The notes beneath the pieces are model-generated. The model saw only the letters and a program-made list of their open reading frames with translations, ran no database searches and had not been told where the DNA came from. Positions 37,156 to 59,749 of a stretch of DNA of 64,000 nt are shown here, piece after piece. This DNA comes from an uncultured Candidatus Saccharibacteria bacterium. GTDB taxonomy: Bacteria; Patescibacteriota; Minisyncoccia; Minisyncoccales; Staskawiczbacteraceae. The number at the start of each line of letters is the position of its first letter. The stretch's first letter is position 1. The stretch covers positions 9,955 to 73,954 of the forward strand of contig CAZREI010000002.1 of the NCBI GenBank assembly GCA_964599285.1. Reading direction: 5' to 3'. A program made the translations under genes and the position numbers.

Positions 37156-37234
37156 ATCAAAACATCATAGTATACTATTTTGTTTTTTACAATACGCGCG
37201 GCGGCCTTTTGGCCGCCGCGCGTATATTACAAAA

Positions 37235-37720
37235 TCAAAGTTCTGGCGCCGAAGAAACCCTTCTATATTCCAACCAAGTTAATACCACCATCACCATATC
37301 CAAGAGCGTAAAAACCAGCAACAGTCCCGAATGGCGGACGAAAAAACGGTAAACCTGATAGACAATAAAAAAACTGTGAAAGATAATGGCCGCCGGATAC
37401 GCCCATCGCTTGCCTTTGAGCAAGGCAACGACCAAAAAAATGTTAACCAGGCCGTAAAACAAAAAGTAAAAAGCAATAAAATTTTTGGTGCTGGCTGAAA
37501 AGTTATCGGCTTGCCAGGTCAGGTATCCGGTCAGGTATTCCGAATGGTTGATGATGCGACGCTCGGTAATCCAAATGATGGCGTTGTAAATAGTTTCGGT
37601 CTTAAATAAAAAAAACAAGGCGCCAATCACGATTTCCCAGACGCCGTTGATTCCTTTGACCAAAATGACCGCTTCGAAAAGTTCATGGAGAATAGTGTTT
37701 TGCCAAAATTTTTTTATCAT
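37235..37720 (-). CDS. DUF2127-like membrane protein
   Basis: 4 TM; last gene of the two-component-system operon. Confidence 0.45.
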   Translation of the reverse strand: MIKKFWQNTILHELFEAVILVKGINGVWEIVIGALFFLFKTETIYNAIIWITERRIINHSEYLTGYLTWQADNFSASTKNFIAFYFLFYGLVNIFLVVALLKGKRWAYPAAIIFHSFFIVYQVYRFFVRHSGLLLVFTLLDMVMVVLTWLEYRRVSSAPEL

Positions 37721-37731
37721 GTAACATTGGG

Positions 37732-38112
37732 TTATCGTGCTGCCAATTTTTCTTTTGCCCGGGCGACAATATTACTGATGCGCATGTCGGACTTTACAAT
37801 GTAATCAGCTCCCAACGATATATCAATAGCTTCGCTGACGTGCCCCTGGTCGCTTAAATTAGTCAGAAAAATCATCTTAGTTTCAATCCCCGCTTCTTTT
37901 ATTTTTTTAGCCATGGTGATGCCGTCCATGATGGGCAAGTTGATGTCTATCATCATCAGGTCCGGATGCTCTTTTTGAGCCATGTCAAAACCTTCTTGGC
38001 CGTCTTTGGCAAATGCCATGGAAAATCCGGTACCGGCGAAAGCCTGCTCCAAAAGCCAGGAAAAATCCTTGTCGTCTTCCACAATGAGAATTTTTTTAAG
38101 CTGTTTATTCAT
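37732..38112 (-). CDS. response regulator, receiver domain only
   Basis: ILIVEDD...D (phospho-acceptor) ...K. Confidence 0.8.
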   Translation of the reverse strand: MNKQLKKILIVEDDKDFSWLLEQAFAGTGFSMAFAKDGQEGFDMAQKEHPDLMMIDINLPIMDGITMAKKIKEAGIETKMIFLTNLSDQGHVSEAIDISLGADYIVKSDMRISNIVARAKEKLAAR

Positions 38113-38120
38113 GGAGATTA

Positions 38121-38522
38121 TTAATCTTTTTTATCAAGCTCTTTTGTCACCATGTCCGCCAGTTCCGTGGGAGTAATGCTGGATTTAAGCAAACATTTGT
38201 CGGGCTTGATGTACTGCATATTCTGCAGGGAATCGCTGGTGTAGTTGCTTAAAATAAAAACGATGAGATTTTTGGTTTGGTCGTTTTCGCGGATAGCCCG
38301 CAACACTTCCAGCCCGTTAATATCGGGCAGAGCCAGGTCAAGCAATACCAGCGAAGGATTTTCTTCCTTTTTTTCCTGCACCTTTTTTAACTTTTCCATG
38401 GTTTCCTTGCCCGTACTCATTCCTTCCACCAAAAAACCGGCGTGGGCCAATGCCGTTTTGTTGATGTACATGATGTCTAGTTCGTCTTCAATGAGCCAAA
38501 TTTTTTGTTTTGATTTTATCAT
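38121..38522 (-). CDS. response regulator, receiver domain only
   Basis: IWLIEDE...LLDLALPDINGLEVL. Confidence 0.8.
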   Translation of the reverse strand: MIKSKQKIWLIEDELDIMYINKTALAHAGFLVEGMSTGKETMEKLKKVQEKKEENPSLVLLDLALPDINGLEVLRAIRENDQTKNLIVFILSNYTSDSLQNMQYIKPDKCLLKSSITPTELADMVTKELDKKD

Positions 38523-38660
38523 GAGTAGTTTTTGGTTTTAGGTTCCGGCCGCGCCGCCCGTTGGGCGGCGCGGCCTATTAGTTAAAGTTCTTTAGTTTTT
38601 AGTTTTAAAACTGGAAACTTTTTCAAACTTCAACTTTAAACTATCAACTAATAACTGCGT
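38520..38660. repeat. family O repeat (GC palindrome ggccgcgccgcccgttgggcggcgcggcc plus agtttt/aaactt words)
   Basis: Copies at 51050-51180 and 53815-53925. Confidence 0.8.
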
Positions 38661-38670
38661 TACTATAATC

Positions 38671-40404
38671 TTACCCTATCGGCAGCTCAATGTAAAAAGT
38701 GGATCCCTGGTTTTCGCCCTTGGACTCTGCCCAAATCTTGCCGTTATGAGCTTTGATAATTTGCGTTGCCAGATACAAACCGATGCCGCTGCCAGAAGCA
38801 ACATCCTTGGCCTTTTGATCCCGCTCAAACACGCGGTCAAACAAAGTTTTTAGGCTTTCGGGTGTCATGCCAATACCCGTATCGGCAATGGTAATTAAAA
38901 TGGCGTTTTTGGAATTTTCGTTTTTTGGATTTTCATTGGAAATTGGTAATTGGGAATTGGAATTTATTTTCACCGTCACGCTTCCCTTCGGCGTGTACTT
39001 TATAGAATTATCAATGACATTGAAAATGGCTGCTTTTAATTTTTCTCGGTCGGCGGTGATGCTTACGTCCTTGGCCATTTTTTCCAGCTTCAACACAACC
39101 CCTTTTGATTCGGCCTTAAACGAAAGTTCGTTTACAATTTCATCCAACATTGGTGAAATCGCAATGCCAGGCTTTAATGTTACCGGATTTTTGCCCAACT
39201 GAAACTGCGTCACATCCAAAAAATTGTTGACTTTACGAATCATGTTTTGCGCCACGGCTTGCATTTTTTTGATGACCTCCAGCGTTTTTTTGTTCTGCTT
39301 GCCAAAGGTACCATTAAGCAACAGGTCGGAGTAGCCCATGATGGAAGTCAGCGGCGTTCGCAAATCGTGCTGGGTATTTTGCACAAACTGGTTTTTGATT
39401 TTATCCAACTTTTCCAGTTCTTCATTGGCCTTTTTTTCAACCAGGTAGGCCCGGTCAATATTTTCCTTGGCCCGCTTTTCCGTAACATAAGCGCGCCGAA
39501 CATCCTCAGCCATAGCGGCAATCTTCTCCCGCTGCTGCACCTCCCTCAAAACCCCGCGAATCAATAAAATGCCAAAGATAAGTACTGACAAAAAAACCGA
39601 AGACCGGTAGAAGATGACAACCAAAGAATCCGCCTGAGTGATTTCTAAAAAAGTAACCACCGAAAGTGCGAAGACCAAAGCCGCAGTTCCAATAACTCTG
39701 ATATTGAATAATTTATGCCTAATGATTGCGTAGGAAGTAAATAAAATAAATGGAAAAACAAATAAAGAACCGAATGGTGCAAATCTGGGATTACCAAACA
39801 CTGTTGGTAATATTAAATTAAATAAAATGTGCAAAACAAAAGTAATAGTTACACCTGTAAGCAATAATCTTAACTCACTTTTTTCCGTCGTATTAGTTGC
39901 TTTGATTAATTTTCTACACAATAAATAAATTGCATAGACTATTAAAAAGATAACCGTAATACCAAAAATAATAACACCAAAACCATTGCTAACTTTTTCT
40001 ATTCCTCCACTTTCTGAAAACTGGGTAACGCGCTCAAAAACAAATGGCGTCAAAGTTAGTAAGGTACTTAAAACTACCGCAGGAAGAACAAGTAAATAAT
40101 AAACTTTTGGAAATGAGATTTTTTCTTGAGGGAAAATATAAAAAAGCCTATAAAGAAAAAAGCAATACAAAATTGCAAAAAAAACATGGGCTCTTAAAAC
40201 CCAAATGGCTATATTTGATGGTAATGGTTGAAATATAAGATAATTTAAAATACCCCAAGGGATAGTTGAAATAACGAATGTGAAAAACGCACGATTTACC
40301 GCGCTCTTACTATTACTCAAAATAACAGTAAAACCCAAAACTCCATTTGCTGCTAATGCAATGCCAACAAATAATAGATCAAAATTTTGAAAATAATCAG
40401 TCAT
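38671..40404 (-). CDS. membrane sensor histidine kinase carrying a repeat-derived in-frame insert
   Basis: HisKA H-box QHDLRTPLTSI; HATPase G-boxes. Low-complexity SNENPKNENSKN encoded by an intergenic-type repeat at 38920-38962. Confidence 0.85.
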   Translation of the reverse strand: MTDYFQNFDLLFVGIALAANGVLGFTVILSNSKSAVNRAFFTFVISTIPWGILNYLIFQPLPSNIAIWVLRAHVFFAILYCFFLYRLFYIFPQEKISFPKVYYLLVLPAVVLSTLLTLTPFVFERVTQFSESGGIEKVSNGFGVIIFGITVIFLIVYAIYLLCRKLIKATNTTEKSELRLLLTGVTITFVLHILFNLILPTVFGNPRFAPFGSLFVFPFILFTSYAIIRHKLFNIRVIGTAALVFALSVVTFLEITQADSLVVIFYRSSVFLSVLIFGILLIRGVLREVQQREKIAAMAEDVRRAYVTEKRAKENIDRAYLVEKKANEELEKLDKIKNQFVQNTQHDLRTPLTSIMGYSDLLLNGTFGKQNKKTLEVIKKMQAVAQNMIRKVNNFLDVTQFQLGKNPVTLKPGIAISPMLDEIVNELSFKAESKGVVLKLEKMAKDVSITADREKLKAAIFNVIDNSIKYTPKGSVTVKINSNSQLPISNENPKNENSKNAILITIADTGIGMTPESLKTLFDRVFERDQKAKDVASGSGIGLYLATQIIKAHNGKIWAESKGENQGSTFYIELPIG

Positions 40405-40407
40405 AGA

Positions 40408-41484
40408 CTAAAGCCACTGAATTTCTGGTTTCTTTTTCAAGGATTGGGCAGTCGGCGGAGCGGCGTACCCTATCCTAAAACTAAAAGTTGGAATTCTTCC
40501 TGAAGTACTAAAAATTTTCACAATATTTTGATAAGCTTTTTTTATAAACACTACCTGATTTGGTGTAAATTCTTCTGGAGTTTCCTCCTGCATCCTCTGT
40601 CCTATATATAAAAGGCCTGCTGACACTGGTTGGAAACTTAGTCCTAAAGAAGTCACGGTAAGCCAAAATAATTGAAGAATTCTTCCAGTTTCAATAAAGT
40701 CTTTAGGTAAATCACTTTTAGCAACAATTAAACCTATCGCAGAGCAGTTACAATAGAGCTCTTCTCTCTTTTTTGCAGCTTTTACTGATATCTTAAATTT
40801 ATTTAGTATCTTTAAAATATTCCAATTACTAAACAGGTATTTAAATATAATTCGCATTAAAAATGGGAGCTCCTTAGTCCCGACATACAAACCTTCTCGT
40901 TTCTTTTTCTCTTCTTCTACGGTCCAGCTTACTTTTGCAAAAAAAGCTTTATGAATATCAAAGTTTTCAAAAATTAATCTATCCGCCATACTAAACGAAC
41001 CTGAAAGATTGCTTATATCTTCAACATTCTGTTTTAATAAAATCTCTAATCCTGAATTTTTTATTGATTCACAAAATGCTTTTATTGACTTTTCGTCCTC
41101 CTGTTTGAGGGGGATCTTTTTGTAAGGTTTTCTATTTGTAGCACGCTTCAAAATAAAAGGAAAAAGATAATTATAAGGATATTTGATATCACTTTTTTCA
41201 AAACTTATTTCTGCAACTAAATCAACTTCATTTTCTTTTGGAAACAAAGTTAAGTTCCCTCTATACCCTTTTTCTGATGCAGTAATTAAAATATTCTCAA
41301 TTAAGGCTCCGTGAGCAATAAACGATCCTCTTTGTTGATAATTAAATAAGAATTTATCCTTATTAGGAAGATTCCATAGAAAAATTTTATTATCGCTGAC
41401 AACAAATCTCCATGGCTGGGAATTATTTCCAGATGGAGCGTTTACGGCAATATTCAAAATTTCATTAATTATTCCTTTCATCAA
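40408..41484 (-). CDS. tandem nitroreductase-family protein (SagB-like or Acg-like)
   Basis: N-terminal VNAPSGNNSQPWRFVV nitroreductase signature; second nitroreductase-like half. Confidence 0.65.
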   Translation of the reverse strand: MMKGIINEILNIAVNAPSGNNSQPWRFVVSDNKIFLWNLPNKDKFLFNYQQRGSFIAHGALIENILITASEKGYRGNLTLFPKENEVDLVAEISFEKSDIKYPYNYLFPFILKRATNRKPYKKIPLKQEDEKSIKAFCESIKNSGLEILLKQNVEDISNLSGSFSMADRLIFENFDIHKAFFAKVSWTVEEEKKKREGLYVGTKELPFLMRIIFKYLFSNWNILKILNKFKISVKAAKKREELYCNCSAIGLIVAKSDLPKDFIETGRILQLFWLTVTSLGLSFQPVSAGLLYIGQRMQEETPEEFTPNQVVFIKKAYQNIVKIFSTSGRIPTFSFRIGYAAPPTAQSLKKKPEIQWL

Positions 41485-42564
41485 CTATCGTGAAATAAAA
41501 TCATCGAATGTCACCCGACTCCTTCCGCTTTTCACAGGCTCTCCAAGAGCAATCTTTCTGGCAATAAAACACGCAATACCAGAAGCTATGGTTACCGTGC
41601 TCATCAGCTGAGGCCTTCCCACTAAAGTTTTGCCGATCTCTTTTACCGAATCCATCACTTTTGGTGGAATATTCTGGGGCCCTACAATCTGCACTACATA
41701 TTTATTGACTTCTGCTTTAGGAACTTTGCCTTGCAACAAATCATCTAAGATTTTTTCCTCAACCATTCCATTAAATATTTTGGTATCTAGGTCATTGTCA
41801 TAGCGCTCCACATCAATGAGTACAGAGTCTCCAATACTGGTAAGCATGACCACGGGAATTTTTTGTTTTTTAGCTTCTTTCCTAAGTAAAATTTTCAATT
41901 CCAGATCATCAATAATTTCAAATACTAAATTTGTTTTTTGCTTGCCACCTAAAAAATCACCCATAGTTTCTTTGGTAAGACCTTTTTCAAACGGTATTAC
42001 ATTTACATAGGGATCTAACTCATATAACTGCTTGCTGATAATATCTATTTTTGGAGATCCCACGTCAGAAAGCTTTCCCCTCACCCTATTTAAATTGGTT
42101 GTTTCCAGAGTATCAAAATCAGCAATTTTTATATGTTTTGGAAACCCATTATATAAAAGTGTTGTGGCAATATTTCCTCCCACGGAAAGACCGGCAATGG
42201 CAATGGTAAAATTCCGTAACTTTTGTTGCTCTTCCGCAGTAATAATATTTCTATTGCGATTTGTTCGCAATGCGTCATTTTCTTGTTCTGAAAGTGTATG
42301 TAAAAGGACATTGCTCCAGGGATAATAGATCCAATCGCCAAGTAAATCTTGATCTTCTTGAGTTTTTATTTTTTTGAATACTAAGAATTCTTTATTAAAT
42401 TCTTCTTTCCCTGCAATGTGCGCATTTCTTATCTCAAAAAACTCTTTTAGTTGTTGTAAATAAACATCAACTACTTTGGGTTTATATTTATCTTCAAGAT
42501 TAGTAATTTCTTTTTCAGTGTATGCGCCCTCTTTTAAAATAGTGGGGTTTTTTAAATTATCCAT
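41485..42564 (-). CDS. E1-like ThiF/MoeB-family adenylyltransferase
   Basis: IAIAGLSVGGNIAT...IKIADFDTLETTNLNR. Confidence 0.75.
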   Translation of the reverse strand: MDNLKNPTILKEGAYTEKEITNLEDKYKPKVVDVYLQQLKEFFEIRNAHIAGKEEFNKEFLVFKKIKTQEDQDLLGDWIYYPWSNVLLHTLSEQENDALRTNRNRNIITAEEQQKLRNFTIAIAGLSVGGNIATTLLYNGFPKHIKIADFDTLETTNLNRVRGKLSDVGSPKIDIISKQLYELDPYVNVIPFEKGLTKETMGDFLGGKQKTNLVFEIIDDLELKILLRKEAKKQKIPVVMLTSIGDSVLIDVERYDNDLDTKIFNGMVEEKILDDLLQGKVPKAEVNKYVVQIVGPQNIPPKVMDSVKEIGKTLVGRPQLMSTVTIASGIACFIARKIALGEPVKSGRSRVTFDDFISR

Positions 42565-42593
42565 TCTATTATGTCGAGTTATATTTTAAAACT

Positions 42594-43367
42594 TTATTTT
42601 TTACTAACTTTTCTAGCTAATATTTTTGCAGATATATTAAATATGGGACTTCCATCTAATTTTTTGCCAAATGCCTTTCTCTTAACTTCATTGTATTCTA
42701 AAATTTCCCAACCCATATACATCTCTTTCAATTCGCCCTCATCTGGATAAAAATTATCTGTTTTGGGATCCTCCCTAAAAAAATCACCATTTTTCGTAAA
42801 AACCGTTATCGCATTTAATCCTTTAAGATTAGTGTGCTCCTGAATTTCCCGTATTAGTTTTATTGCTTCCTCATAAGACAAATGATGCAGCATAAAAGTA
42901 GAGACTAACACATCAAAATTACTATCAAGATTTAAATGGCGGCTATCTACAATTTCTGTTTTTATACCTAAATCTTTTTCCTGAGATACTTTTTTTATTT
43001 TTTCTATTCCAACTTTGGAAATATCTTCTGCCGTAACTTCAAATCCATTTTCAGCCAAAAATATAGAATTTCTCCCTTCACCAGCTCCTAATTCTAAAAC
43101 GGAACCTGAATTGCGATATTTTAGTATATCTTCAACAATTTTTTCTGGTTTTCCTTGGCCAAAAGTAACCCCATTTTCAGAATACATTTTGTCATAATGT
43201 TCTGCTATCTTATCTGCTGCTCCATCTTCACTTTCATTATTTTTTAACTGCTCTGCCATAAATTTACTACTAGGAATATTTTGATTTCGTTGCTGTATTT
43301 TACCATAAATCGGTTCAATCAGGCAACTGAAAGCTGTACATTTGTATATTTTCTTTACCTTGTTCAT
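42594..43367 (-). CDS. class I SAM-dependent methyltransferase (TehB-like)
   Basis: VLELGAGEGRNSIFLAENGFEVTAEDIS. Confidence 0.7.
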   Translation of the reverse strand: MNKVKKIYKCTAFSCLIEPIYGKIQQRNQNIPSSKFMAEQLKNNESEDGAADKIAEHYDKMYSENGVTFGQGKPEKIVEDILKYRNSGSVLELGAGEGRNSIFLAENGFEVTAEDISKVGIEKIKKVSQEKDLGIKTEIVDSRHLNLDSNFDVLVSTFMLHHLSYEEAIKLIREIQEHTNLKGLNAITVFTKNGDFFREDPKTDNFYPDEGELKEMYMGWEILEYNEVKRKAFGKKLDGSPIFNISAKILARKVSKK

Positions 43368-43482
43368 TGAGAAATAGATTCTGTCTCATTACCCAACACC
43401 ATTGACAATGGAGGGCATATGATATAATGTAAAAATAGTTTTTGGTACTTTGAAAATCCGAACTTCAATTTGGAGGATTGTT

Positions 43483-43977
43483 ATGTCTCATGCTATATCT
43501 AAGCAAAAAGTCTACGAAATGCTGATTGAGGAGATTAACCAAGTTATTGATAGGCTCACGAAGGTATATGAGACCACAAGTGATGCTGCGGTCAAGGCGC
43601 AGGGACGTATGGAATCACGCTACGACACGACCAAGGAAGAGCAAAGTAAGCTCGCAGATGCTATTGGTATGCAAGTTTATGAGCATAGGAAGCGTCTTAA
43701 GTCGCTTCAGTATTTCTGGTCTATAACAACGAAAAACGTAGGGACAGTTATTGGTCCCGGGTCGTTAGTTATAGTTGAAGCTGATAATCAAGAAGAAGTA
43801 TACTTTATTATTGAATCAGGGAGCGGTTACGTTTTTGAACTAGAAGGTTGCGAAATTGTTTGTATCTCTGTTCAGACGCCGCTCGCTCAATCACTAACTG
43901 GGCACAAACAAGGTGAAGTAGTGGAAGTGATAGTTGGGGGGGAAAAACGCTTACTAACTATCAAGTCCCTGCAGTAA
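43483..43977 (+). CDS. GreA/GreB-family-like protein
   Basis: C-terminal FKBP-like domain ISVQTPLAQSLTGHKQGEVVEVIVGGEKRLLTIKSL resembles GreA C-terminus; GGAGG SD. Confidence 0.55.
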   Translation: MSHAISKQKVYEMLIEEINQVIDRLTKVYETTSDAAVKAQGRMESRYDTTKEEQSKLADAIGMQVYEHRKRLKSLQYFWSITTKNVGTVIGPGSLVIVEADNQEEVYFIIESGSGYVFELEGCEIVCISVQTPLAQSLTGHKQGEVVEVIVGGEKRLLTIKSLQ

Positions 43978-43997
43978 TCCAACTGAAAGGATTTGAG

Positions 43998-44564
43998 ATG
44001 AAACTGGAACATGTCTTTGTTAGTATTGATGGAGTAGATGGTGTTGGCAAGACCACGGTAGCAAAGCTTCTTGCTGCTGATGGATCTTTCCAATATCACA
44101 AGTCTCCAACCAGCCCTTTTGCGCAACTGCGAAAAGAAGTTGACGCTCACGCAAATCCGATTGAACGCTACTGCTTCTACCGTATAGCAACGCAGTTTGA
44201 TTCAGCGCAGATAAGCAAGTTGCTGGAAACAAACTCAGTTGTCTGTGATCGCTACATTGCGTCAACGGCGGCATATCACATCGCAATGGACGCTCGTATT
44301 CGAGTTATCCATAGTGATGCGGAACTCCTTAAGCCACATTTTGCGTTTCTTCTAGGTGCTCGTTCGGAGATTCGTGATAAGCGAATACTTGAACGCGCAA
44401 AAGTGTTAAGCGATGTAAAACTTGAGAGAGATAGTATGCTCCTCGATCGCGTCGCTGAAATTTTTATGTCGTTCGGTCTTACCTACATTGACACCAGCGA
44501 CATCCCAGCTGAAGAAGTCGTACAAGTAATAAAGCGCATCGTTGCGCAAGGAGGAATACCATGA
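43998..44564 (+). CDS. thymidylate-kinase-like P-loop nucleotide kinase
   Basis: SIDGVDGVGKTT P-loop; DRYIAS; AAGGA SD. Confidence 0.65.
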   Translation: MKLEHVFVSIDGVDGVGKTTVAKLLAADGSFQYHKSPTSPFAQLRKEVDAHANPIERYCFYRIATQFDSAQISKLLETNSVVCDRYIASTAAYHIAMDARIRVIHSDAELLKPHFAFLLGARSEIRDKRILERAKVLSDVKLERDSMLLDRVAEIFMSFGLTYIDTSDIPAEEVVQVIKRIVAQGGIP

Positions 44565-45574
44565 GCTTGAAGCCGCTTTCGTACGCTCACATCATGGCCA
44601 TTGCAGATGCGTGGCGTGATATGGGTGGTGTTCCTGAAGTAGAAATCGGTGCCCTTGAACCGCTTTTGTGGCGTGACGAGCAATATCGCATTCACGATGT
44701 TGTGAGTGCGCTGACTGAACGCGGATTCAATGTTTCGATGACCACCAATGGACAATTACTGGATATCTTCGCCAAGAATTTGAGTCGTGCAGGTCTCTCA
44801 CTCATACGAACTAGCTGGCACTCGACTGACCCACTTATGTTTCGGGAAATATCTGGAGGTTATGGTGATTACAATCGGTTCATGCGTGGGATAATACTTG
44901 CGCTTGAATCGGGTATAAAAATTGCCTTCAATCGCGTACTCCACAAAGGGTACACTGATGATATTCCCGAACAATTGTCGTTCATTGAGCGGTACAAAAG
45001 CCGACTCAAACTCTACACACTTCTATGGACGCCGCAGGGTGCATCTACTCACGAGTTGTTCTATCAAGATTGGCATCCTGTTGTGCGAGAATCAGTTTTG
45101 CCACGCACACTCAAGATAGTCAGAGTCAGAAAACAACTTGGTCGTGGACGTCTTCGGTTTCATCTTGTTGGAGGTGGATCGGTTGAAGTAAAGTTAGGTG
45201 ATAAATTGGACCGTAGTATGCACCCCTGTACATCATGCTCGTTTAAAAACGAGTGTGAAGAGGGGTTTGGCGACTATGTTCGAATTGACCCGCGTCTGCA
45301 CCTTTACTTCTGCTATATGCGCAGGGATATCGGATTCCAAATACCGGAATACTTTGGGAGACCAGAGGTATTGAAGCAGAAGTTACAAGAAGCAATTGGG
45401 ACAATAGATGTTGAGAATCTTCTTGTAACGGCTCCGCTACGCCTGACCGTAACGCCATTCTGCAATTTTAATTGCAGAGCGCCTGGCGCAAAACAGGGAT
45501 GGTGCATGGAGGAGCCAGGTGAGTACACATATCCAAAAATTCGTTTGTCTCTCCTGGGAGAAAACAAACCTTAA
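44561..45574 (+). CDS. MoaA-like radical-SAM-fold protein with cluster-loop-like motif at C-terminus
   Basis: EPLL...SMTTNGQLL...SWHSTDPLMF...IKIAFNRVLHKGYTDD...CTSC..C follows MoaA. No N-terminal CX3CX2C. C-terminal LRLTVTPFCNFNCRAPGAKQGWC resembles the MoaA N-terminal loop. Confidence 0.55.
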   Translation: MSLKPLSYAHIMAIADAWRDMGGVPEVEIGALEPLLWRDEQYRIHDVVSALTERGFNVSMTTNGQLLDIFAKNLSRAGLSLIRTSWHSTDPLMFREISGGYGDYNRFMRGIILALESGIKIAFNRVLHKGYTDDIPEQLSFIERYKSRLKLYTLLWTPQGASTHELFYQDWHPVVRESVLPRTLKIVRVRKQLGRGRLRFHLVGGGSVEVKLGDKLDRSMHPCTSCSFKNECEEGFGDYVRIDPRLHLYFCYMRRDIGFQIPEYFGRPEVLKQKLQEAIGTIDVENLLVTAPLRLTVTPFCNFNCRAPGAKQGWCMEEPGEYTYPKIRLSLLGENKP

Positions 45575-45595: not shown

Positions 45596-46174
45596 TCATG
45601 CGGCTTTTTTCTTTGGTGGATTTGAGAATGTGATTTTCGACAAACGAATTATTGTTTCGGCAGGAATACCTATTTCTTTTTCGTATATAAGATCAATACT
45701 ACCAAAGACAGCTTTTCTGAATTCAAAACCTAATTCACTGGATATTTCTTGCACTATTTTCTCGTTTGACCCCTCAATCTCTACAAATGGATTTAGTCCA
45801 GGCCATGTATCAATCATTACTTCCACTCCGTCACGCACCCATACCTCGCGCATATTTTCCTGAAATGCTTTTACGGGGGCACCACATGCTTCTAAAAACG
45901 ATGCGGCAGTATCAAAATCATTGACAATAAGCTCAACTTCATAAGTGTCGTTGATGCCCAATCCACGAACTTCTTTAATAGTCATTGTTACCTTATCGGA
46001 TTCTTGCCGAACACGACCCCATTTATTTCGTCCAGGCGCAATACGAGAAAAATCAAAAGTTTTTCTCCGCATCATATAATCCGGGGTTTTTAAATCAAAT
46101 CCCTTACTTTTTAATTTGACTCGTAGTAAATCTTTATTGACCGATAGGAATTTTGCCTCTACTTCTTTTTTCAT
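45596..46174 (-). CDS. CYTH-domain protein
   Basis: N-terminal EVEAKF. Confidence 0.65.
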   Translation of the reverse strand: MKKEVEAKFLSVNKDLLRVKLKSKGFDLKTPDYMMRRKTFDFSRIAPGRNKWGRVRQESDKVTMTIKEVRGLGINDTYEVELIVNDFDTAASFLEACGAPVKAFQENMREVWVRDGVEVMIDTWPGLNPFVEIEGSNEKIVQEISSELGFEFRKAVFGSIDLIYEKEIGIPAETIIRLSKITFSNPPKKKAA

Positions 46175-46238
46175 AACTGTAGTTTATCACGAATTTTATC
46201 ATCTGCATAATTTAAAGAAATACAATTTTATAGGCTCT

Positions 46239-46817
46239 CTATAATACTTCCGCAGAAAATAATTTTAGTTTATCCGCTAACTTACTAATAGGAAGCCCTT
46301 CAGCACCAAAAAAGTCACCTTCTATTTTTTCAATCAATACCGCGCCAATGCCTTGAATGGCATATGAACCAGCTTTATCTAAAGGTTCCCCGGTTTCTAT
46401 ATATTTTTTGATTGTACTGGAAGTAAACTTTTTCATATAAACCACTGTTTTATCGTGAAAAGATAGTGATTTGCCGTTCTTGGTATCGATAATAGTAACT
46501 CCAGATATAATATCGTGTTTTGTCCCGCTTAACATTGTAAGCATTTTCTCGGCATCTTTTTTATTTTTTGGTTTACCCAATTTCTTATTCTTATATACTA
46601 CAATCGTGTCAGCAGCGATGATAATGGTATTAGGATTTTTAAGAGCAACACTTTCTGCTTTTCCTTGCGACAAATATTCAACCAGTTTTTCGGGTGACAT
46701 TTTCAGATTCATATCTTCCCGATAATCACTTGCCTGAATTTGAAAAACTAACCCTGTTCTTGCAAGGATTTCTTTTCTTCGCGGAGAAGTTGAGGCTAAT
46801 ACTATTTTTCTATTCAT
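46239..46817 (-). CDS. maf: Maf-like nucleoside triphosphate pyrophosphatase
   Basis: IVLASTSPRRKEIL. Confidence 0.85.
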   Translation of the reverse strand: MNRKIVLASTSPRRKEILARTGLVFQIQASDYREDMNLKMSPEKLVEYLSQGKAESVALKNPNTIIIAADTIVVYKNKKLGKPKNKKDAEKMLTMLSGTKHDIISGVTIIDTKNGKSLSFHDKTVVYMKKFTSSTIKKYIETGEPLDKAGSYAIQGIGAVLIEKIEGDFFGAEGLPISKLADKLKLFSAEVL

Positions 46818-46830
46818 GATAAAAAATCTA

Positions 46831-47370
46831 TTATGTTTTTTTATAAAAACTTTCAGGTGGCGCGATTATCTGAATGAAGGCATTTCTTAAAGATTCTTCC
46901 AAACTTATTTCCCGTATCAGCACCCCTCCAGAATATGTTCCCCATGTATCATTCGGCAAGTTGCCAAATTCCTTTTCAATCATTGCCATAACGCCATAAT
47001 GTTCCATGTTTAGATCATCCATTTTTTGCAAGATATAATCTGGAACTTTTAATCCACTAGAATATCCGTAGTATTCTTTGCTGTCACCAGTTATAATAAC
47101 AGCCCAACACTCTTCATACATATGTCCGTATCTTTCTACTAAACCGCTTTCCAATCCTATATAATAATCGCAATTTATAACATGATGTTTAGAGTCCATC
47201 GCCCTATTCCTTGCTCCATCAAAAGTTTGCTGATCGTAAGGAGTATAAGGAACTTTGGATTCTGCATCATAACTTTCAGTAACTATATTTTTCTCATTAA
47301 AAAGTTGGCCAACAACCTTTTCAGTGACAGCAATTTTTCTCTGACTTTTGGAACCAACAACAAATTTCAT
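46831..47370 (-). CDS. YjjX-like non-canonical purine NTP phosphatase
   Basis: MKFVVGSKSQRKIAVTEK...YIGLESGLV. Confidence 0.6.
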   Translation of the reverse strand: MKFVVGSKSQRKIAVTEKVVGQLFNEKNIVTESYDAESKVPYTPYDQQTFDGARNRAMDSKHHVINCDYYIGLESGLVERYGHMYEECWAVIITGDSKEYYGYSSGLKVPDYILQKMDDLNMEHYGVMAMIEKEFGNLPNDTWGTYSGGVLIREISLEESLRNAFIQIIAPPESFYKKT

Positions 47371-47438
47371 AATTTCTATTTTTAATTTTTGTATCCCCCA
47401 TTTATCTATATGTGAAAAGCAAAAAATAGGAAAATAGA

Positions 47439-48986
47439 TTACTTCTTCACCCACTTCTGTTTGATGCCCAGTTTAAAATGCTTTGGATCTTCGGCTGGCC
47501 AAAATTGTAATCTAGGCAATGCACGGTTACCGATAAATTTATGCAACTCCCGATATTCGGAGTTTTTTAATTCTAACTGTTCAGTGATAGCGTTAACCAT
47601 GGCACGTTTAATGACCTTGGGGATACCATTCTCTCCATAAGGTTTTTTCATCTCCAAATGAATTAAAAGATACTGGTTTTGCTTGCGGTCAAATTGGGTC
47701 TCCAAAGTGAATTTTCCTGTCACATACATGGCCAGCGGTTTTTTGAGCAAGGCCGCCCTGATCGGTTCTGGATAAATTTGCAAGCCATATAACGTAACTG
47801 ACAAGTCGCTGCGTTCAAAAACAAACACAAACGGAAGTTCGTTGGCAACTGTATCTATGCCGGCTTTTTTTTCTTCACGGACAATATCTACGCCATGCTT
47901 TTTGAGCAGGGCAACCATTTGCGAATAAGAATACACTCCCCCATGATCTCCAACATTATAGCGGATTAAGGGAATTTCGTTATTACCCGTTAAAATAATA
48001 TTCCCGTCTACTGACTCAAAATTAATAAATAACGGATTAAATTGAGTTAAGGTGGGTGTCTTATTGATTGATCCGAAGATATCTTTAAATAAGTCTGGCT
48101 TACTGGTGGCTATTCTCCGAATTAAAATACTCAGCGGAGTTTCATAAGCCATAGCACCAATATCCGCAGTTCCGTAAATATTCAACGTATCCAAGTAAAT
48201 ATTTTTAATACGGACACTATCGGCTAAGTAACTTCTGAACTCTTCGGTAAAAGCTTCTGCCGCAAAGAGTAACTTCACATTCATCTTTTTAAAGTCTACG
48301 CTTTGGGAAGCTGACTCATCAACAATATCTTTGATAAACGGCGGGTATCCGACTAAAACGACGGTATGAAAATGAGGCGCCAACTTTTTTAAGGTGTTGA
48401 AAATTTCTTTTTTATTAATGCCCGGGGTAATAATGGATATTGGAGTACCAATACGCTGGGCAGCCATTTCAAATGCTTTATAGGTAATCAAGCCCCCTAT
48501 CCACACTCCCATCCCAAAACAAATAACCACCAAGGTAGGGCCTTGTTTTTTTTGCAAACTATTCTTAAGAAATTCTTCAATCAACAAAGAATACTGCCAA
48601 TCCAGTTCGTTTCCCCTAGGAAAATAAAATGGCTCTCCCGTAGAACCAGATGTTGAAGTAAATACTAATGGTTTTTCCAGATTTCCGTTCCAGCAAACTT
48701 TTTCAAGTGAATATTTACGCAGATAGTCTTTTTTGCTAATAGGCGGAACTTGCACAAAATCGTCCCATGTTTTTATTTCTCCAGGATTAACTCTATTTTT
48801 TTTAAGAAAATCCTGATAAGCGGGAACAAATTCAGCTGCTTTACGGAAAAGTGCCAATGAACGTTTTTTTTGTTCCAATGACCAATCATTTGAATTTCTT
48901 TTTTTTACATCCAAAAGATCCGGGCTATTCTGTTTGATAACTTTAAAAAGAGTAGATGTGGTAAAACTTTTTTGAGATTTCATCAA
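47439..48986 (-). CDS. adenylate-forming enzyme, PaaK-like (F390 synthetase-like)
   Basis: TSTSGSTGEPF. Confidence 0.7.
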   Translation of the reverse strand: MMKSQKSFTTSTLFKVIKQNSPDLLDVKKRNSNDWSLEQKKRSLALFRKAAEFVPAYQDFLKKNRVNPGEIKTWDDFVQVPPISKKDYLRKYSLEKVCWNGNLEKPLVFTSTSGSTGEPFYFPRGNELDWQYSLLIEEFLKNSLQKKQGPTLVVICFGMGVWIGGLITYKAFEMAAQRIGTPISIITPGINKKEIFNTLKKLAPHFHTVVLVGYPPFIKDIVDESASQSVDFKKMNVKLLFAAEAFTEEFRSYLADSVRIKNIYLDTLNIYGTADIGAMAYETPLSILIRRIATSKPDLFKDIFGSINKTPTLTQFNPLFINFESVDGNIILTGNNEIPLIRYNVGDHGGVYSYSQMVALLKKHGVDIVREEKKAGIDTVANELPFVFVFERSDLSVTLYGLQIYPEPIRAALLKKPLAMYVTGKFTLETQFDRKQNQYLLIHLEMKKPYGENGIPKVIKRAMVNAITEQLELKNSEYRELHKFIGNRALPRLQFWPAEDPKHFKLGIKQKWVKK

Positions 48987-51046: not shown

Positions 51047-51179
51047 GTAGTTTTTAGTTTTAGGTTCCGGCCGCGTCGCCCGCGGGCGACACGGCCTGTT
51101 AGTTTAGGTTTTTTTGGTTGTTAGTTTTAAACTGGAAACTTTCTAAACTTAAACTTTAAACTTAAAACTGATAACTATT

Positions 51180-59533: not shown

Positions 59534-59737
59534 CTAGCAGGTACATCCGCCCTGGGACTTGGACTGTTCGCGACGCATTTGTTCGTTGATGCTGTCGGCC
59601 AGCTTCAGGGCTTTGTCCACCCCGGCCAACACATCGTCAACCTCCGGAACCTGGTCGGAAATGTCAGTCGTCTCAAGAGACGAACTGCCACCTGGACCCG
59701 GCCCTTTGGTTTTCTTGCGGAACCGATCTTGGAGCAT
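59534..59737 (-). CDS. Pup-like small protein ending ...QGGCTC
   Basis: Gly-rich N-terminus; EVDDVLAGVD...KSQGG resembles Pup DEIDDVLEEN...QKGGQ; AAGGAGA SD; directly after ARC stop. Confidence 0.5.
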   Translation of the reverse strand: MLQDRFRKKTKGPGPGGSSSLETTDISDQVPEVDDVLAGVDKALKLADSINEQMRREQSKSQGGCTC

Positions 59738-59749
59738 GGATGTTTCTCC

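What the first reader, a model, noticed from the sequence alone, without database searches (positions are those of the whole stretch)
37235..43367. Tight operon: methyltransferase - E1-like ThiF - tandem nitroreductase - histidine kinase - two REC-only regulators - membrane protein
- Spacing: seven minus-strand genes with 1-30-bp gaps.
- TOMM-like pairing: an E1-like adenylyltransferase next to a two-domain nitroreductase-family protein recalls the C-protein/dehydrogenase pair of thiazole/oxazole peptide pathways, with a methyltransferase as in plantazolicin.
- Missing parts: no YcaO or precursor peptide gene is visible.
- Regulation: the pathway is physically coupled to a multi-TM sensor kinase and two receiver-only proteins.
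- This could be a peptide or small-molecule modification/signalling module.
Basis: partly seen in the sequence, partly recalled or inferred. Interest (0 to 1): 0.65.

Follow-up and report, generated by a model that had tools for sequence, protein, structure and literature searches.

The report
Oxazolone-synthetase-like enzymes wired to sensor kinase
The E1-like and nitroreductase-like genes are a split relative of the recently discovered oxazolone synthetases and, together with an aryl-acid ligase and a seven-helix membrane sensor kinase, form a four-gene module conserved across ultrasmall Patescibacteria, which may be a small-molecule signalling system.

Summary
The seven ORFs exist as described, but they are not one tight operon. 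Five gaps are 0-29 bp; the kinase-to-REC gap is 148 bp and holds a 13-bp all-GC hairpin.

The ThiF-like and tandem-nitroreductase proteins match the N- and C-terminal halves of NCBI's Rv1355c family. Rv1355c is TrzS, an oxazolone synthetase made of an ATP-dependent cyclase fused to a flavin oxidase. They are not TOMM parts: there is no YcaO, no SagB or Ocin_ThiF signal, and no precursor ORF.

In 80 related genomes, almost all Patescibacteria, four genes stay together:
- ThiF (the query), 80/80
- a PaaK-like ligase, 74/80
- the oxidase, 73/80
- a 7TM histidine kinase, 71/80, always the 3'-most gene

The methyltransferase, both REC proteins and DUF2127 are not conserved partners.

The usual N-acyltransferase is absent, and the ligase appears to replace it. 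Natural fusions tie the enzymes into one pathway built on aromatic amino acids.

Best reading: an oxazolone-type small-molecule pathway coupled to a membrane sensor. The chemistry and the sensor's ligand are inferred. New variant of a known kind.

The parts
47439..48986 (-). PaaK-like adenylate-forming ligase (515 aa; public aa). [quoted passage not shown]
   Evidence: It has no Pfam hit. It is 39% identical (4e-110) to the ~500-aa protein directly upstream of ThiF in other clusters. TIGR02155 PaaK scores 4e-13 and PDB 2y4o scores 1e-7. The AF2 model has pLDDT 85; Foldseek tops are PaaK1/2 at 7e-22 and ClxA at 1e-15. It sits next to ThiF in 74/80 loci, always on the same strand. It is fused to ThiF in P0259 and P0257.
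42594..43367 (-). TehB-like class I SAM methyltransferase (longest ORF 257 aa; public aa from 43259). Lineage-specific accessory, possibly a tailoring enzyme; not a conserved member.
   Evidence: Pfam TehB scores 1.5e-27. It is 29 bp upstream of ThiF and shares the same low GC3 (0.20). There is no E<=1e-5 match in the 80 related loci by tblastn. By phmmer the only match is a weak one (2.7e-6) to a TehB-like MT inside L005/L019.
41485..42564 (-). ThiF-like, ATP-dependent cyclase homologue: the split N-terminal half of an Rv1355c/TrzS-type oxazolone synthetase.
   Evidence: NF005901 (Rv1355c family) gives 1.8e-84 and 284 bits over model positions 12-340 of 722; the next-best ThiF model gives 71 bits. 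It is 39% identical (5e-61) to a fused Rv1355c-family protein and 41% identical to a triple-fusion protein. Its only plasmid-database relatives are 'Rv1355c family protein' entries and Streptomyces/Kitasatospora ThiF proteins. The Arg finger R103, the G125-S-x-G129 loop, D151, the N157-L-N-R160 motif, K172 and the adenylation Asp D219 are invariant in 30 homologues.
40408..41481 (-). Flavin-dependent oxidase (FDO) with an Acg-like two-lobed nitroreductase fold: the split C-terminal half of the Rv1355c/TrzS type.
   Evidence: NF011424 gives 7e-52; NF005901 positions 375-713 give 7.6e-47; the Acg family NF047509 gives 2.8e-36; there is no SagB hit. The best PDB match is Acg, 2ymv. It is 21% identical across the whole FDO domain of a fused Rv1355c-family protein. 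The APS..N.QPW motif, G58, N63, R113, G197 and G266 are (near-)invariant in 50 CPR homologues and shared with the fused protein. It starts 3 bp after the ThiF stop.
38671..40404 (-). Sensor histidine kinase: an N-terminal polytopic (HisKA_7TM-type) domain plus a HisKA/HATPase core. Conserved fourth member of the module and always its 3'-most gene.
   Evidence: Pfam finds HisKA and HATPase_c, and there are 9 hydrophobic segments. Homologues carry PF16927 HisKA_7TM. The 7TM region is found downstream of ThiF on the same strand in 71/80 loci. The gene starts 3 bp after the FDO stop. GC3 jumps from about 0.2 to about 0.6 at residues ~230-260, the end of the 7TM domain.
38547..38575 (.). Perfect 13-bp all-GC hairpin in the 148-bp spacer between the kinase and the first REC gene. 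It splits the 'operon' into a 4-gene block and a 3-gene block.
   Evidence: The spacer folds at -51.4 kcal/mol, z = -6.75. There is no U-tract on the coding strand and no Rfam match.
38121..38522 (-). REC-only response regulator 1: a plausible local phospho-acceptor, not a conserved member.
   Evidence: Pfam Response_reg scores 1.8e-13. A REC-only gene directly follows the kinase in only about 7 of 59 loci with a complete kinase, and 38 loci have no REC within 10 kb. It is only 25-35% identical to any of them.
37732..38112 (-). REC-only response regulator 2: a plausible local phospho-acceptor, not a conserved member.
   Evidence: Pfam Response_reg scores 1.5e-20. The conservation evidence is the same as for REC1.
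37235..37720 (-). DUF2127 membrane protein: adjacent but not part of the conserved module.
   Evidence: Pfam DUF2127 scores 1.5e-24. A homologue occurs in only 1 of 80 loci, about 10 kb from ThiF.

Best explanation
The ThiF-like gene (41485-42564) and the two-lobed nitroreductase-fold gene (40408-41481) are a split version of the ThiF-cyclase/flavin-oxidase enzyme that makes oxazolones (OxzB, TyzB+TyzC, TrzS = Rv1355c). With a PaaK-like adenylate-forming ligase (47439-48986) they form a three-enzyme small-molecule pathway conserved across Patescibacteria.

Proposed steps:
1. The ligase adenylates an aromatic-amino-acid-derived carboxylic acid and joins it to an amino acid. This gives an N-acyl amino acid and does the job of the missing OxzA/TyzA/TrzA acyltransferase.
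2. ThiF adenylates that product's carboxylate, and the amide oxygen closes the 5(4H)-oxazolone ring.
3. The FDO removes two hydrogens to give the unsaturated oxazolone.
4. In this genome a TehB-like methyltransferase may tailor the product.
5. The 7TM histidine kinase encoded immediately downstream is a conserved fourth member. It most likely senses the product or its precursor in the membrane and here passes phosphate to the two REC-only proteins.

Shown by the data:
- The homologies.
- The conserved linkage despite shuffled gene order.
- The natural fusions.
- The absence of the acyltransferase.
- The intact catalytic motifs.

Inferred:
- The substrate.
- Amide formation by the ligase.
- The oxazolone product.
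- The kinase's ligand.
- The REC partners.
For: Profile and sequence matches:
- ThiF matches Rv1355c-family model positions 12-340 (284 bits) and the FDO matches positions 375-713 (160 bits). All other ThiF models score 71 bits or less.
- ThiF is 39-41% identical to ThiF domains that are fused to an FDO.
- The only plasmid-database relatives are Rv1355c-family proteins and Streptomyces/Kitasatospora ThiF proteins.

Published biochemistry:
- Rv1355c = TrzS, an ATP-dependent cyclase plus an O2-dependent desaturase that makes N-acyl tryptazolones (PMC12856293).
- TyzB/TyzC and OxzB do the same chemistry (PMC10404671; bioRxiv 10.1101/2020.06.11.147165).

Motifs:
- The adenylation Asp D219 and the other E1-type motifs are invariant.
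- The FMN-type motifs of the FDO are invariant.

Linkage in 80 species:
- PaaK-like ligase 74/80, FDO 73/80, 7TM kinase 71/80. The ligase and kinase are always, and the FDO in 70 of 73 loci, on the ThiF strand. All four are present in 64 loci.
- The enzyme genes appear in many different orders, but the kinase is always last.
- The same result is obtained starting from the ligase and from the kinase.

Fusions among the nearest representatives:
- ELFV dehydrogenase-ligase-ThiF
- ligase-ThiF
- ThiF-FDO (30 or more)
- ThiF-hydrolase
- ThiF-FDO-hydrolase
- ThiF-FDO-acyltransferase
- ThiF-aromatic amino acid lyase

Ligase in place of acyltransferase:
- A TrzA-like acyltransferase query hits only the one proteobacterial locus that lacks the ligase, and nothing in the window or the CPR loci.
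- The ligase has the PaaK fold. ClxA, annotated in the PDB as complexed with 3-amino-4-hydroxybenzoate and its adenylate, is among the top matches, and the amide-bond synthetase McbA appears lower in the list.

Compositional link to the sensor domain:
- MT, ThiF, FDO and kinase residues 1-~230 share GC3 of 0.15-0.30. The kinase core, the REC genes and the ATP synthase genes have 0.45-0.68.
Against: - No product or activity is known for any CPR member.
- The two proteins together (284 + 160 bits) fall short of NCBI's 476-bit equivalog cutoff.
- The FDO is only 21% identical to the characterised type. The residue that probably corresponds to TrzS R540 is not conserved; it is a gap or Ser.
- PaaK-family enzymes are usually CoA ligases. 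Amide formation here is an inference, and if the enzyme only makes a CoA thioester, an acyltransferase is still missing.
- The characterised FDO step uses O2, whereas (from general knowledge, not tested here) many Patescibacteria are thought to be anaerobes.
- Sensing of the product by the kinase rests on gene linkage only. A mirror-tree test of co-evolution was weak: r = 0.31 for 7TM against FDO, and 0.30 for 7TM against its own kinase core.
- More distant HisKA_7TM kinases occur without the enzymes.
- In this window the ligase is 4 kb away, in another transcription unit.
Confidence: 0.55

Rival explanations
1. The three enzymes convert or salvage host-derived aromatic amino acids or aryl acids (activation, cyclisation, oxidation). 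The end product is a metabolite, antimicrobial or envelope component, not a signal. The kinase senses the substrate or another membrane cue.
For: An ELFV (ScyB-like) dehydrogenase occurs in 38/80 clusters and an aminotransferase in L089. An alpha/beta hydrolase occurs in 26/80, and one relative is a ThiF-aromatic lyase fusion. The physiological role of oxazolones is unknown even in mycobacteria. More distant HisKA_7TM kinases work without these enzymes.
Against: The closest characterised relatives are biosynthetic. The kinase is retained as the last gene of the cluster in 71/80 species despite extensive reshuffling of the enzyme genes. In this window the sensor domain shares the enzymes' atypical composition.
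Confidence: 0.2
2. One reading: a TOMM-like or other RiPP pathway, in which an E1-like docking/activating protein and a SagB-type dehydrogenase modify a ribosomal peptide, with a methyltransferase as in plantazolicin.
For: Many ThiF-like enzymes act on peptide C-termini (review PMC12596934). Modifying enzymes next to a polytopic kinase recall Agr/ComQXPA. A methyltransferase is adjacent.
Against: - There is no SagB (TIGR03605) or Ocin_ThiF_like hit at E<=0.01; the best hits are the Rv1355c and Acg families.
- There is no YcaO among the window ORFs scanned or in the eight annotated homologous neighbourhoods that carry the enzyme genes.
- The gaps are too small for a gene, and there is no Cys/Ser/Thr-rich ORF.
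- No conserved short-ORF family exists in 80 clusters; the top 'families' look like shadow frames of neighbouring genes.
- The methyltransferase is not conserved.
Confidence: 0.04
3. ThiF activates the C-terminus of a protein (a ubiquitin-like or sulfur-carrier protein, or the kinase or another cluster protein), and the ligase acts as an acyl-protein synthetase. This would be a protein-modification system.
For: The E1 superfamily ancestry fits. There are weak PADLOC hits to CBASS-type E1-E2 proteins (1e-8). LuxE-type acyl-protein synthetases are, from memory, related to PaaK-type ligases.
Against: No ThiS/MoaD/ubiquitin-like gene, E2 or JAB protein appears in the window or the neighbourhood tables. 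The profile affinity is specifically to the small-molecule-acting Rv1355c family. The fusions are to amino-acid-metabolising enzymes.
Confidence: 0.05
4. Ordinary cofactor or tRNA chemistry (ThiF/MoeB/TcdA) plus an unrelated nitroreductase, adjacent by chance.
For: Public annotations call homologues 'molybdopterin/thiamine biosynthesis adenylyltransferase' or 'tRNA threonylcarbamoyladenosine dehydratase'.
Against: Scores are far below every family cutoff, for example ThiF at 71 against 159 bits and TcdA at 27 against 304. The conserved linkage and fusions with the FDO argue against chance.
Confidence: 0.02

Closest known systems
TrzAS (Rv1356c/Rv1355c) of Mycobacterium tuberculosis, M. smegmatis and Rhodococcus: N-acyl tryptazolone synthesis (PMC12856293)
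   Same: It has a ThiF-like ATP-dependent cyclase plus an Acg-like flavin oxidase. The window proteins match the two halves of the Rv1355c family model end to end, including the N-terminal extension, and ThiF is 39% identical to a fused Rv1355c-family protein. The adenylation Asp is conserved. That paper notes that trzAS lies next to predicted c-di-GMP turnover genes and proposes a possible signalling role.
   Different: Here the enzyme is split into two genes. The FDO is only 21% identical. There is no TrzA-type acyltransferase; a PaaK-like ligase is the conserved partner instead. A 7TM histidine kinase is a conserved cluster member. The host is a Patescibacterium rather than a mycolic-acid actinobacterium.
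TyzACB (Rv2336-Rv2338c): N-acyl tyrazolone synthesis (PMC10404671)
   Same: It is a split architecture, with separate, adjacent ThiF (TyzB) and FDO (TyzC) genes as in this window. The FDO is described as monomeric, with a single flavin and an Acg-like lid.
   Different: TyzA, an acyltransferase with an AHL-synthase-like fold, supplies the N-acyl amino acid there and is absent here.
OxzAB of Pseudoalteromonas rubra: the first oxazolone synthetase (de Rond et al., bioRxiv 10.1101/2020.06.11.147165)
   Same: The ThiF-nitroreductase pairing acts on a small molecule (an N-acyl aromatic amino acid) rather than on a protein. That paper suggests a stress- or signal-like role and reports that the products are hydrolytically labile.
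   Different: OxzB is a fusion and is partnered with the N-acyltransferase OxzA. It is proteobacterial, and no sensor kinase linkage is reported.
Synthase-receptor quorum-sensing gene pairs with membrane-embedded kinases (LuxM/LuxN, CqsA/CqsS); a comparison drawn from general knowledge
   Same: The logic is the same: genes for making a small hydrophobic molecule lie next to a polytopic-membrane histidine kinase that has no large extracellular domain.
   Different: There is no homology in the sensor domain. NCBIfam similarity to LuxQ and other kinases is confined to the catalytic core. No DNA-binding regulator is present, only REC-only proteins. Ligand sensing is untested.
PaaK phenylacetate-CoA ligase and ClxA (for the 515-aa protein)
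   Same: It has the same two-domain adenylate-forming fold (Foldseek 7e-22 to PaaK1; 1e-15 to ClxA), with a P-loop-like TSTSGSTGEPF motif.
   Different: It scores 48.6 bits against the 646-bit PaaK cutoff. It is about 80 residues longer than PaaK. There is no paa operon; the family context is ThiF/FDO/kinase in every neighbourhood examined.

Membership tests
Oxazolone synthetase systems (OxzAB / TyzACB / TrzAS) | ThiF-like ATP-dependent cyclase of the Rv1355c/OxzB type with an intact adenylation motif | tested here: met
   NF005901 N-terminal half scores 284 bits, 1.8e-84. ThiF is 39-41% identical to fused proteins. D219, R103, the G-loop and the NLNR motif are invariant.
Oxazolone synthetase systems (OxzAB / TyzACB / TrzAS) | Flavin-dependent oxidase of the nitroreductase superfamily (FDO, Acg-like) fused to or adjacent to the ThiF | tested here: met
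   The gap is 3 bp. NF005901 C-terminal half gives 7.6e-47, NF011424 gives 7e-52 and the Acg family gives 2.8e-36. Acg (2ymv) is the best PDB match. The gene is adjacent in 73/80 loci.
Oxazolone synthetase systems (OxzAB / TyzACB / TrzAS) | Reaches NCBI's curated cutoff for the Rv1355c family (476 bits) | tested here: not met
   The two separate proteins score 284 and 160 bits. A bona fide fused member scores 846 bits.
Oxazolone synthetase systems (OxzAB / TyzACB / TrzAS) | Adjacent N-acyl-amino-acid-forming acyltransferase (OxzA/TyzA/TrzA) | tested here: not met
   A TrzA-like query (L096, next to an 846-bit Rv1355c-family gene) finds nothing in the window (best E = 1) or in the CPR loci. It finds only the triple fusion in L072. 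No acyltransferase Pfam family appears in the eight annotated homologous neighbourhoods that carry the enzyme genes.
Oxazolone synthetase systems (OxzAB / TyzACB / TrzAS) | FDO residues shown by mutagenesis in TrzS (R540, Q651) | tested here: inconclusive
The probable equivalent in a plasmid-borne family member (R542) aligns to a gap or Ser in the CPR FDOs.
Oxazolone synthetase systems (OxzAB / TyzACB / TrzAS) | Product is a 4-alkylidene/arylidene oxazol-5-one | not testable with these tools
   This needs expression and LC-MS.
TOMM / azole-containing RiPP pathways | YcaO cyclodehydratase | tested here: not met
   No YcaO was found among the window ORFs scanned or in the neighbourhood tables of homologues. 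Not every small window ORF was scanned.
TOMM / azole-containing RiPP pathways | SagB-type FMN dehydrogenase | tested here: not met
   No SagB model appears at E<=0.01; the best matches are the Rv1355c-, PRK14851- and Acg-type families.
TOMM / azole-containing RiPP pathways | Ocin_ThiF_like / E1-like docking protein | tested here: not met
   No such NCBIfam model appears among the 17 hits at E<=0.01. The Rv1355c family dominates by more than 200 bits.
TOMM / azole-containing RiPP pathways | Precursor peptide gene | tested here: not met
   Searches examined the window spacers. One search found no conserved short-ORF family in 80 clusters.
ThiF/MoeB/TcdA housekeeping adenylyltransferases | Family-level score and a sulfur-carrier (ThiS/MoaD) partner | tested here: not met
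   Scores are 16-71 bits against cutoffs of 152-647. No ThiS/MoaD family appears among the annotated neighbours.
PaaK phenylacetate-CoA ligase (the 515-aa protein) | PaaK fold | tested here: met
   The AF2 model has pLDDT 85. Foldseek gives 7e-22 to 2y27 with TM 0.54-0.68.
PaaK phenylacetate-CoA ligase (the 515-aa protein) | Equivalog-level similarity and paa operon context | tested here: not met
   It scores 48.6 against 646 bits. The neighbours are ThiF/FDO/kinase, not paa genes.
Classical two-component system | Kinase with an H-box and ATP-binding domain | tested here: met
   HisKA scores 1e-12 and HATPase_c scores 2e-22. The HDLRTPL, DNSIKYT, DTGIGM and GSGIGL motifs were read directly in the translation.
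Classical two-component system | Conserved cognate response regulator with an output domain | tested here: not met
   Only REC-only proteins are present. A REC gene directly follows the kinase in about 7 of 59 loci with a complete kinase. No orthology signal was found.
Synthase-receptor quorum-sensing pairs (LuxM/LuxN, CqsA/CqsS) | Homology of the sensor domain or the synthase | tested here: not met
   Kinase hits are confined to the catalytic core (residues ~300-576), and no LuxN/CqsS model appears among the 25 hits shown (of 70). The resemblance is in gene logic only.

The most novel reading that the evidence does not exclude
Patescibacteria carry a phylum-wide chemical signalling module. 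An oxazolone-type (azlactone) molecule, built from aromatic amino acids by a PaaK-like ligase, a ThiF cyclase and a flavin oxidase, is sensed by a dedicated 7TM histidine kinase. In this genome the sensor domain appears to have been inherited together with the enzymes.

This would be, as far as I could find, the first autoinducer-like system proposed for these episymbionts. It would also give oxazolones the physiological role that is still missing in mycobacteria and proteobacteria.
Probability: 0.3. Interest if true: 0.85.

Novelty: new variant of a known kind. Interest (0 to 1): 0.62.

Why it matters
Oxazolone synthetases were discovered only in 2020-2021 and extended to M. tuberculosis in 2023 and 2025. 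Both groups state that the biological role of oxazolones is unknown, and both raise signalling as a possibility.

This window leads to a variant that is widespread in Patescibacteria, a huge and poorly understood group with very small genomes and (from general knowledge) few known specialised-metabolite pathways. In this variant:
- A PaaK-like ligase replaces the acyltransferase.
- A polytopic sensor kinase is retained in the cluster in about 90% of species.

If the kinase senses the product, the question 'what are oxazolones for?' becomes directly testable. It would also point to chemical communication in organisms that live attached to other cells.

Practically, hundreds of genes now annotated 'ThiF family adenylyltransferase', 'tRNA threonylcarbamoyladenosine dehydratase', 'phenylacetate-CoA ligase' or 'hypothetical' could be re-annotated as one pathway.

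I found no paper describing this module in the searchable library.

Tried and rejected
1. **TOMM/RiPP reading.** Rejected: no YcaO, no SagB or Ocin_ThiF signal, and no conserved short ORF.
2. **Anti-phage defence.** PADLOC gives only generic hits (E1-E2 at 1e-8 for ThiF, mad2 at 5.5e-11 for the methyltransferase) and nothing for the FDO or the ligase.
3. **Reverse co-occurrence test from the kinase side.**
   - The word-indexed protein search with the 7TM profile returned only 14 proteins.
   - Three neighbourhoods were checked by hand. A close homologue has the enzymes; two distant ones do not.
4. **Mirror-tree co-evolution of the 7TM domain with each enzyme, in 41 loci.** The correlations are weak (0.05-0.31) and not decisive.
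5. **Orthology of the window's REC proteins with kinase-adjacent RECs elsewhere.** Only generic 25-35% identity was found.
6. **Checking the TrzS R540/Q651 equivalents.** Inconclusive without the M. smegmatis sequence.
7. **Foldseek of the ThiF model against AFDB50.** The library was unavailable, so the ThiF model (pLDDT 90) was not searched further.
8. **Rfam scan of 36-50 kb.** Nothing was found beyond a sub-threshold L20-leader match.
9. **The protein next to the Rv1355c-family gene in L094.** It is not TrzA; its only hit is a weak, sub-threshold match to a type IV coupling-protein domain. The divergent neighbour in L096 was used instead.
10. **Promoter-like sites.** They are no more frequent than in shuffles.

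Full report
**1. Observation**

| Gene | Coordinates | Family |
|---|---|---|
| Methyltransferase | 42594-43367 | TehB-like |
| ThiF | 41485-42564 | ThiF |
| Nitroreductase-fold protein | 40408-41484 | Nitroreductase |
| Kinase | 38671-40404 | HisKA + HATPase_c |
| REC1 | 38121-38522 | Response_reg only |
| REC2 | 37732-38112 | Response_reg only |
| Membrane protein | 37235-37720 | DUF2127 |

Public gene calls for the same DNA start the nitroreductase at the ATG at 41481 (357 aa) and the methyltransferase at M37 (221 aa).

The gaps are 29, 0-3, 3, 148, 8 and 11 bp. The 148-bp kinase-to-REC spacer contains a perfect 13-bp all-GC hairpin at 38547-38575 and folds far better than shuffles (z = -6.75). 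So there are two tight blocks, of four and three genes, not one seven-gene block.

Tight same-strand packing is the rule in this window: nearly all genes from 1 to 43 kb are on the minus strand. Spacing alone therefore says little.

The best homologues are from Patescibacteria/CPR metagenome-assembled genomes (MAGs). The ThiF protein is 74% identical to one from a Staskawiczbacteria MAG.

**2. What the two enzymes are**

- The ThiF protein matches positions 12-340 of the 722-position 'Rv1355c family' model (284 bits, 1.8e-84). Every other ThiF/MoeB/TcdA model scores 71 bits or less.
- The nitroreductase matches positions 375-713 of the same model (160 bits). It also matches PRK14851 (176 bits) and the Acg family (126 bits).
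- No SagB or Ocin_ThiF_like model appears.

The pair is therefore a split version of a known fusion protein. Rv1355c was characterised in 2025 as TrzS. [quoted passage not shown] TyzB/TyzC in M. tuberculosis and OxzB in Pseudoalteromonas rubra do the same with Tyr/Phe (PMC10404671; bioRxiv 10.1101/2020.06.11.147165).

Direct comparisons agree.
- Against all PLSDB plasmids, the only relatives of the window's ThiF are 'Rv1355c family protein' entries from Mycobacteriales and ThiF proteins from Streptomyces/Kitasatospora.
- ThiF is 39% identical (5e-61) to a fused family member. The FDO aligns over that protein's whole FDO domain at 21% identity.
- The E1-type motifs, including the adenylation Asp (D219), are invariant in 30 homologues. 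D219 aligns with the Asp of the conserved 'ECD' stretch of a fused Rv1355c-family protein, which is the probable counterpart of TrzS D217.
- The FDO keeps the APS..N.QPW motif and R113, both shared with the fused protein.
- The likely equivalent of TrzS R540 is not conserved. The substrate pocket may therefore differ.

**3. What belongs together**

I fetched 80 loci from 80 species that encode a relative of this ThiF. Almost all are Patescibacteria. I then searched each locus for every candidate partner.

| Partner | Loci with it (of 80) |
|---|---|
| ~500-aa protein with no Pfam hit | 74 |
| FDO | 73 |
| N-terminal 7TM region of the kinase | 71 |
| ELFV-type amino acid dehydrogenase | 38 |
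| Alpha/beta hydrolase | 26 |
| Window-type methyltransferase | 0 |
| DUF2127 | 1 |

- All four core genes are present in 64 loci. Many of the remaining loci are cut off by contig ends.
- The ~500-aa protein and the kinase are always on the ThiF strand, and the FDO is in 70 of 73 loci.
- The enzyme genes occur in many different orders, but the kinase is always the 3'-most gene.
- A weak phmmer match to the window's methyltransferase exists in one cluster only.
- A REC-only gene directly follows the kinase in about 7 of 59 loci with a complete kinase gene. There is none within 10 kb in 38 loci. The window's REC proteins show only generic similarity to any of them.

The ~500-aa protein does exist in the window, at 47439-48986 on the minus strand. 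It is 39% identical (4e-110) to its counterparts. Six genes separate it from the rest of the cluster.

Starting from that protein's homologues, three of three neighbourhoods again show ThiF, FDO and a HisKA_7TM kinase. Starting from the kinase, a close homologue has the enzymes, while two distant HisKA_7TM kinases do not. Actinobacterial loci have the three enzymes without the kinase.

**4. The ligase replaces the acyltransferase**

The 515-aa protein is a divergent PaaK-type adenylate-forming ligase.
- TIGR02155 scores 4e-13 and PDB 2y4o scores 1e-7.
- The AF2 model has pLDDT 85. Foldseek gives 7e-22 to PaaK1.
- ClxA is also among the top matches; the PDB entry describes it in complex with 3-amino-4-hydroxybenzoate and its adenylate. 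The amide-bond synthetase McbA appears lower in the list.

I took a TrzA-like acyltransferase as a query: the divergent neighbour of an 846-bit Rv1355c-family gene in Rhodococcus. It finds nothing in the window or in the CPR loci. Its only hit is a 960-aa acyltransferase-ThiF-FDO triple fusion in the single Thiotrichaceae locus, which lacks both the ligase and the kinase. In this sample, ligase and acyltransferase are mutually exclusive.

An exhaustive profile search found 1,144 representative clusters at E<=1e-30. Architectures among the best 148 include:
- ELFV dehydrogenase-ligase-ThiF
- ligase-ThiF
- 30 or more ThiF-FDO
- ThiF-hydrolase
- ThiF-FDO-hydrolase
- ThiF-FDO-acyltransferase
- ThiF-aromatic amino acid lyase

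These fusions tie the dehydrogenase, ligase, cyclase, oxidase and hydrolase into one pathway and point to aromatic amino acid substrates. The ELFV enzyme's best named match is the tryptophan dehydrogenase ScyB.

**5. How it most likely works**

Inferred chemistry:
1. The ligase adenylates an aromatic-amino-acid-derived acid and couples it to an amino acid.
2. ThiF adenylates the resulting N-acyl amino acid, and the ring closes to an oxazolone.
3. The FDO desaturates it.
4. Where present, the hydrolase may open or transfer the reactive azlactone. In this genome the TehB-like methyltransferase may tailor the product.

The kinase has an intact H-box and ATP-binding motifs and a polytopic N-terminus. 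The simplest reading of its retention is that it senses the product or precursor, as LuxN and CqsS sense the products of neighbouring synthase genes. That comparison comes from general knowledge and concerns gene logic only; there is no homology.

In this window the two REC-only proteins are the only candidate phospho-acceptors nearby.

**6. A compositional clue**

Third-position GC (GC3) has a median of 0.45 across the window's genes. Individual values:

| Gene or region | GC3 |
|---|---|
| Methyltransferase | 0.20 |
| FDO | 0.25 |
| ThiF | 0.30 |
| Kinase residues 1-~230 | 0.15-0.25 |
| Kinase from residue ~260 onward | mostly 0.45-0.68 |
| REC genes, DUF2127, atpB | 0.51-0.55 |
| CYTH/Maf/NTPase | 0.27-0.29 |
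| Ligase | 0.37 |

The breakpoint lies at the end of the HisKA_7TM domain; Pfam places that domain at residues 12-230 in a homologue.

Sequence affinities are mosaic too.
- The 7TM region and the FDO are closest to L008 (62% and 67% identity).
- ThiF and the kinase core are closest to L007 (74% and 61% identity).

This suggests that the enzymes and the sensor domain arrived together and were joined to a kinase core of resident composition. It is a single-genome observation. A mirror-tree test across 41 loci was weak.

**7. Rivals**

- The TOMM/RiPP reading fails each defining feature that I tested.
- Housekeeping ThiF/MoeB/TcdA function is excluded by the scores and by the conserved partners.
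- A protein-modification role lacks any ubiquitin-like, E2 or JAB partner.
- The serious rival is that the pathway makes a non-signal metabolite and the kinase senses something else. I cannot exclude this.

Caveats:
- No CPR member has been characterised.
- The characterised FDO step needs O2.
- PaaK enzymes are usually CoA ligases.
- The combined Rv1355c-model score (444 bits) is under NCBI's 476-bit cutoff.

**8. Novelty**

The enzyme pair is a new, split member of a known kind. Three features appear to be undescribed in the searchable literature:
- the ligase standing in for the acyltransferase,
- the near-universal coupling to a 7TM kinase,
- the spread across Patescibacteria.

I rate the finding a new variant of a known kind, interest 0.62.

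Noticed in passing
window 43450-45574 (+ strand): A three-gene plus-strand block with higher overall GC (0.44-0.47) interrupts the cluster. It holds a GreA-like protein, a dTMP-kinase-like protein that hits PADLOC PDC-M51B (1.2e-24) and the viperin-associated kinase VakA (7e-18), and a MoaA-like radical-SAM protein. The radical-SAM match starts at profile position 28-40, and stop codons lie in frame upstream, so the CxxxCxxC segment seems to be missing. This may be an inserted, and possibly decayed, defence-like island.
   Followed up: partly
window ~39620-39750 (inside the kinase gene) and 39.7-48.9 kb: There is a sharp GC3 breakpoint inside the histidine kinase gene, at the end of its 7TM domain (about 0.2 upstream, about 0.6 downstream). 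It forms the left edge of a low-GC3 island that also holds the FDO, ThiF, the methyltransferase, CYTH/Maf/NTPase and, less markedly, the ligase. This suggests a recombination that swapped the sensor domain together with the enzymes.
   Followed up: partly
window 38547-38575, 37195-37222, 51069-51096: Three very GC-rich hairpins (stems almost entirely G-C) sit in intergenic spacers of an otherwise ~42% GC sequence. None has a clear U-tract on the coding strand. They may be terminator or REP-like elements of this lineage.
   Followed up: partly
window 45596-47454 (- strand): Directly downstream of the ligase gene, overlapping it by 16 bp, lie a DUF84 inosine/xanthosine triphosphatase-like NTPase, a Maf nucleotide pyrophosphatase and a CYTH-domain protein. 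This is a run of three nucleotide-phosphate-hydrolysing enzymes that share the low GC3.
   Followed up: no
P0257, P0259, P0258, P0261, P0262, P0376, P0380 (representatives): Natural fusion proteins in the ThiF family: ELFV dehydrogenase-ligase-ThiF (1242 aa), ligase-ThiF (863 aa), ThiF-alpha/beta hydrolase, ThiF-FDO-hydrolase, ThiF-FDO-acyltransferase, and ThiF-aromatic amino acid ammonia-lyase (PF00221, 569 bits).
   Followed up: yes
L091 8001-9494 compared with L090 4332-9575: Two genomes share the same DnaK-DnaJ ... kinase ... AspRS-ScpA-ScpB context. One has ligase-ThiF-FDO in front of the kinase. The other has unrelated small genes (including a GIY-YIG gene) and a more divergent kinase. 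This looks like gain or loss of the enzyme block next to a retained kinase.
   Followed up: partly
L072 9041-11923: A 960-aa ORF in a Thiotrichaceae MAG fuses a TrzA-like acyltransferase, ThiF and FDO in one protein. It resembles NCBI's PRK14852-type architecture, which has an N-terminal extension of about 300 residues before its ThiF and nitroreductase regions.
   Followed up: yes
P0003: A ThiF protein 69% identical to the window's is deposited under a 'Nanoarchaeota archaeon' MAG. This reflects either CPR-DPANN gene transfer or a binning error.
   Followed up: no
L025-L061 (Saccharimonadales-type loci): In these lineages the cluster kinase is about 715-750 aa, compared with about 535-565 aa elsewhere. 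One or two REC-only genes often sit about 5 kb upstream on the opposite strand.
   Followed up: partly
window 63181-63921 (+): A TrmB-family regulator is 34% identical to the TrmB gene that sits inside or next to the cluster in L005 and four other loci. Here it lies 20 kb away.
   Followed up: no
window 59579-61477: Two long ORFs overlap on opposite strands (601 aa on plus with no Pfam hit; 575 aa on minus, an AAA ATPase) in the most GC-rich part of the window (0.54-0.56). The plus-strand ORF is probably a shadow frame.
   Followed up: no
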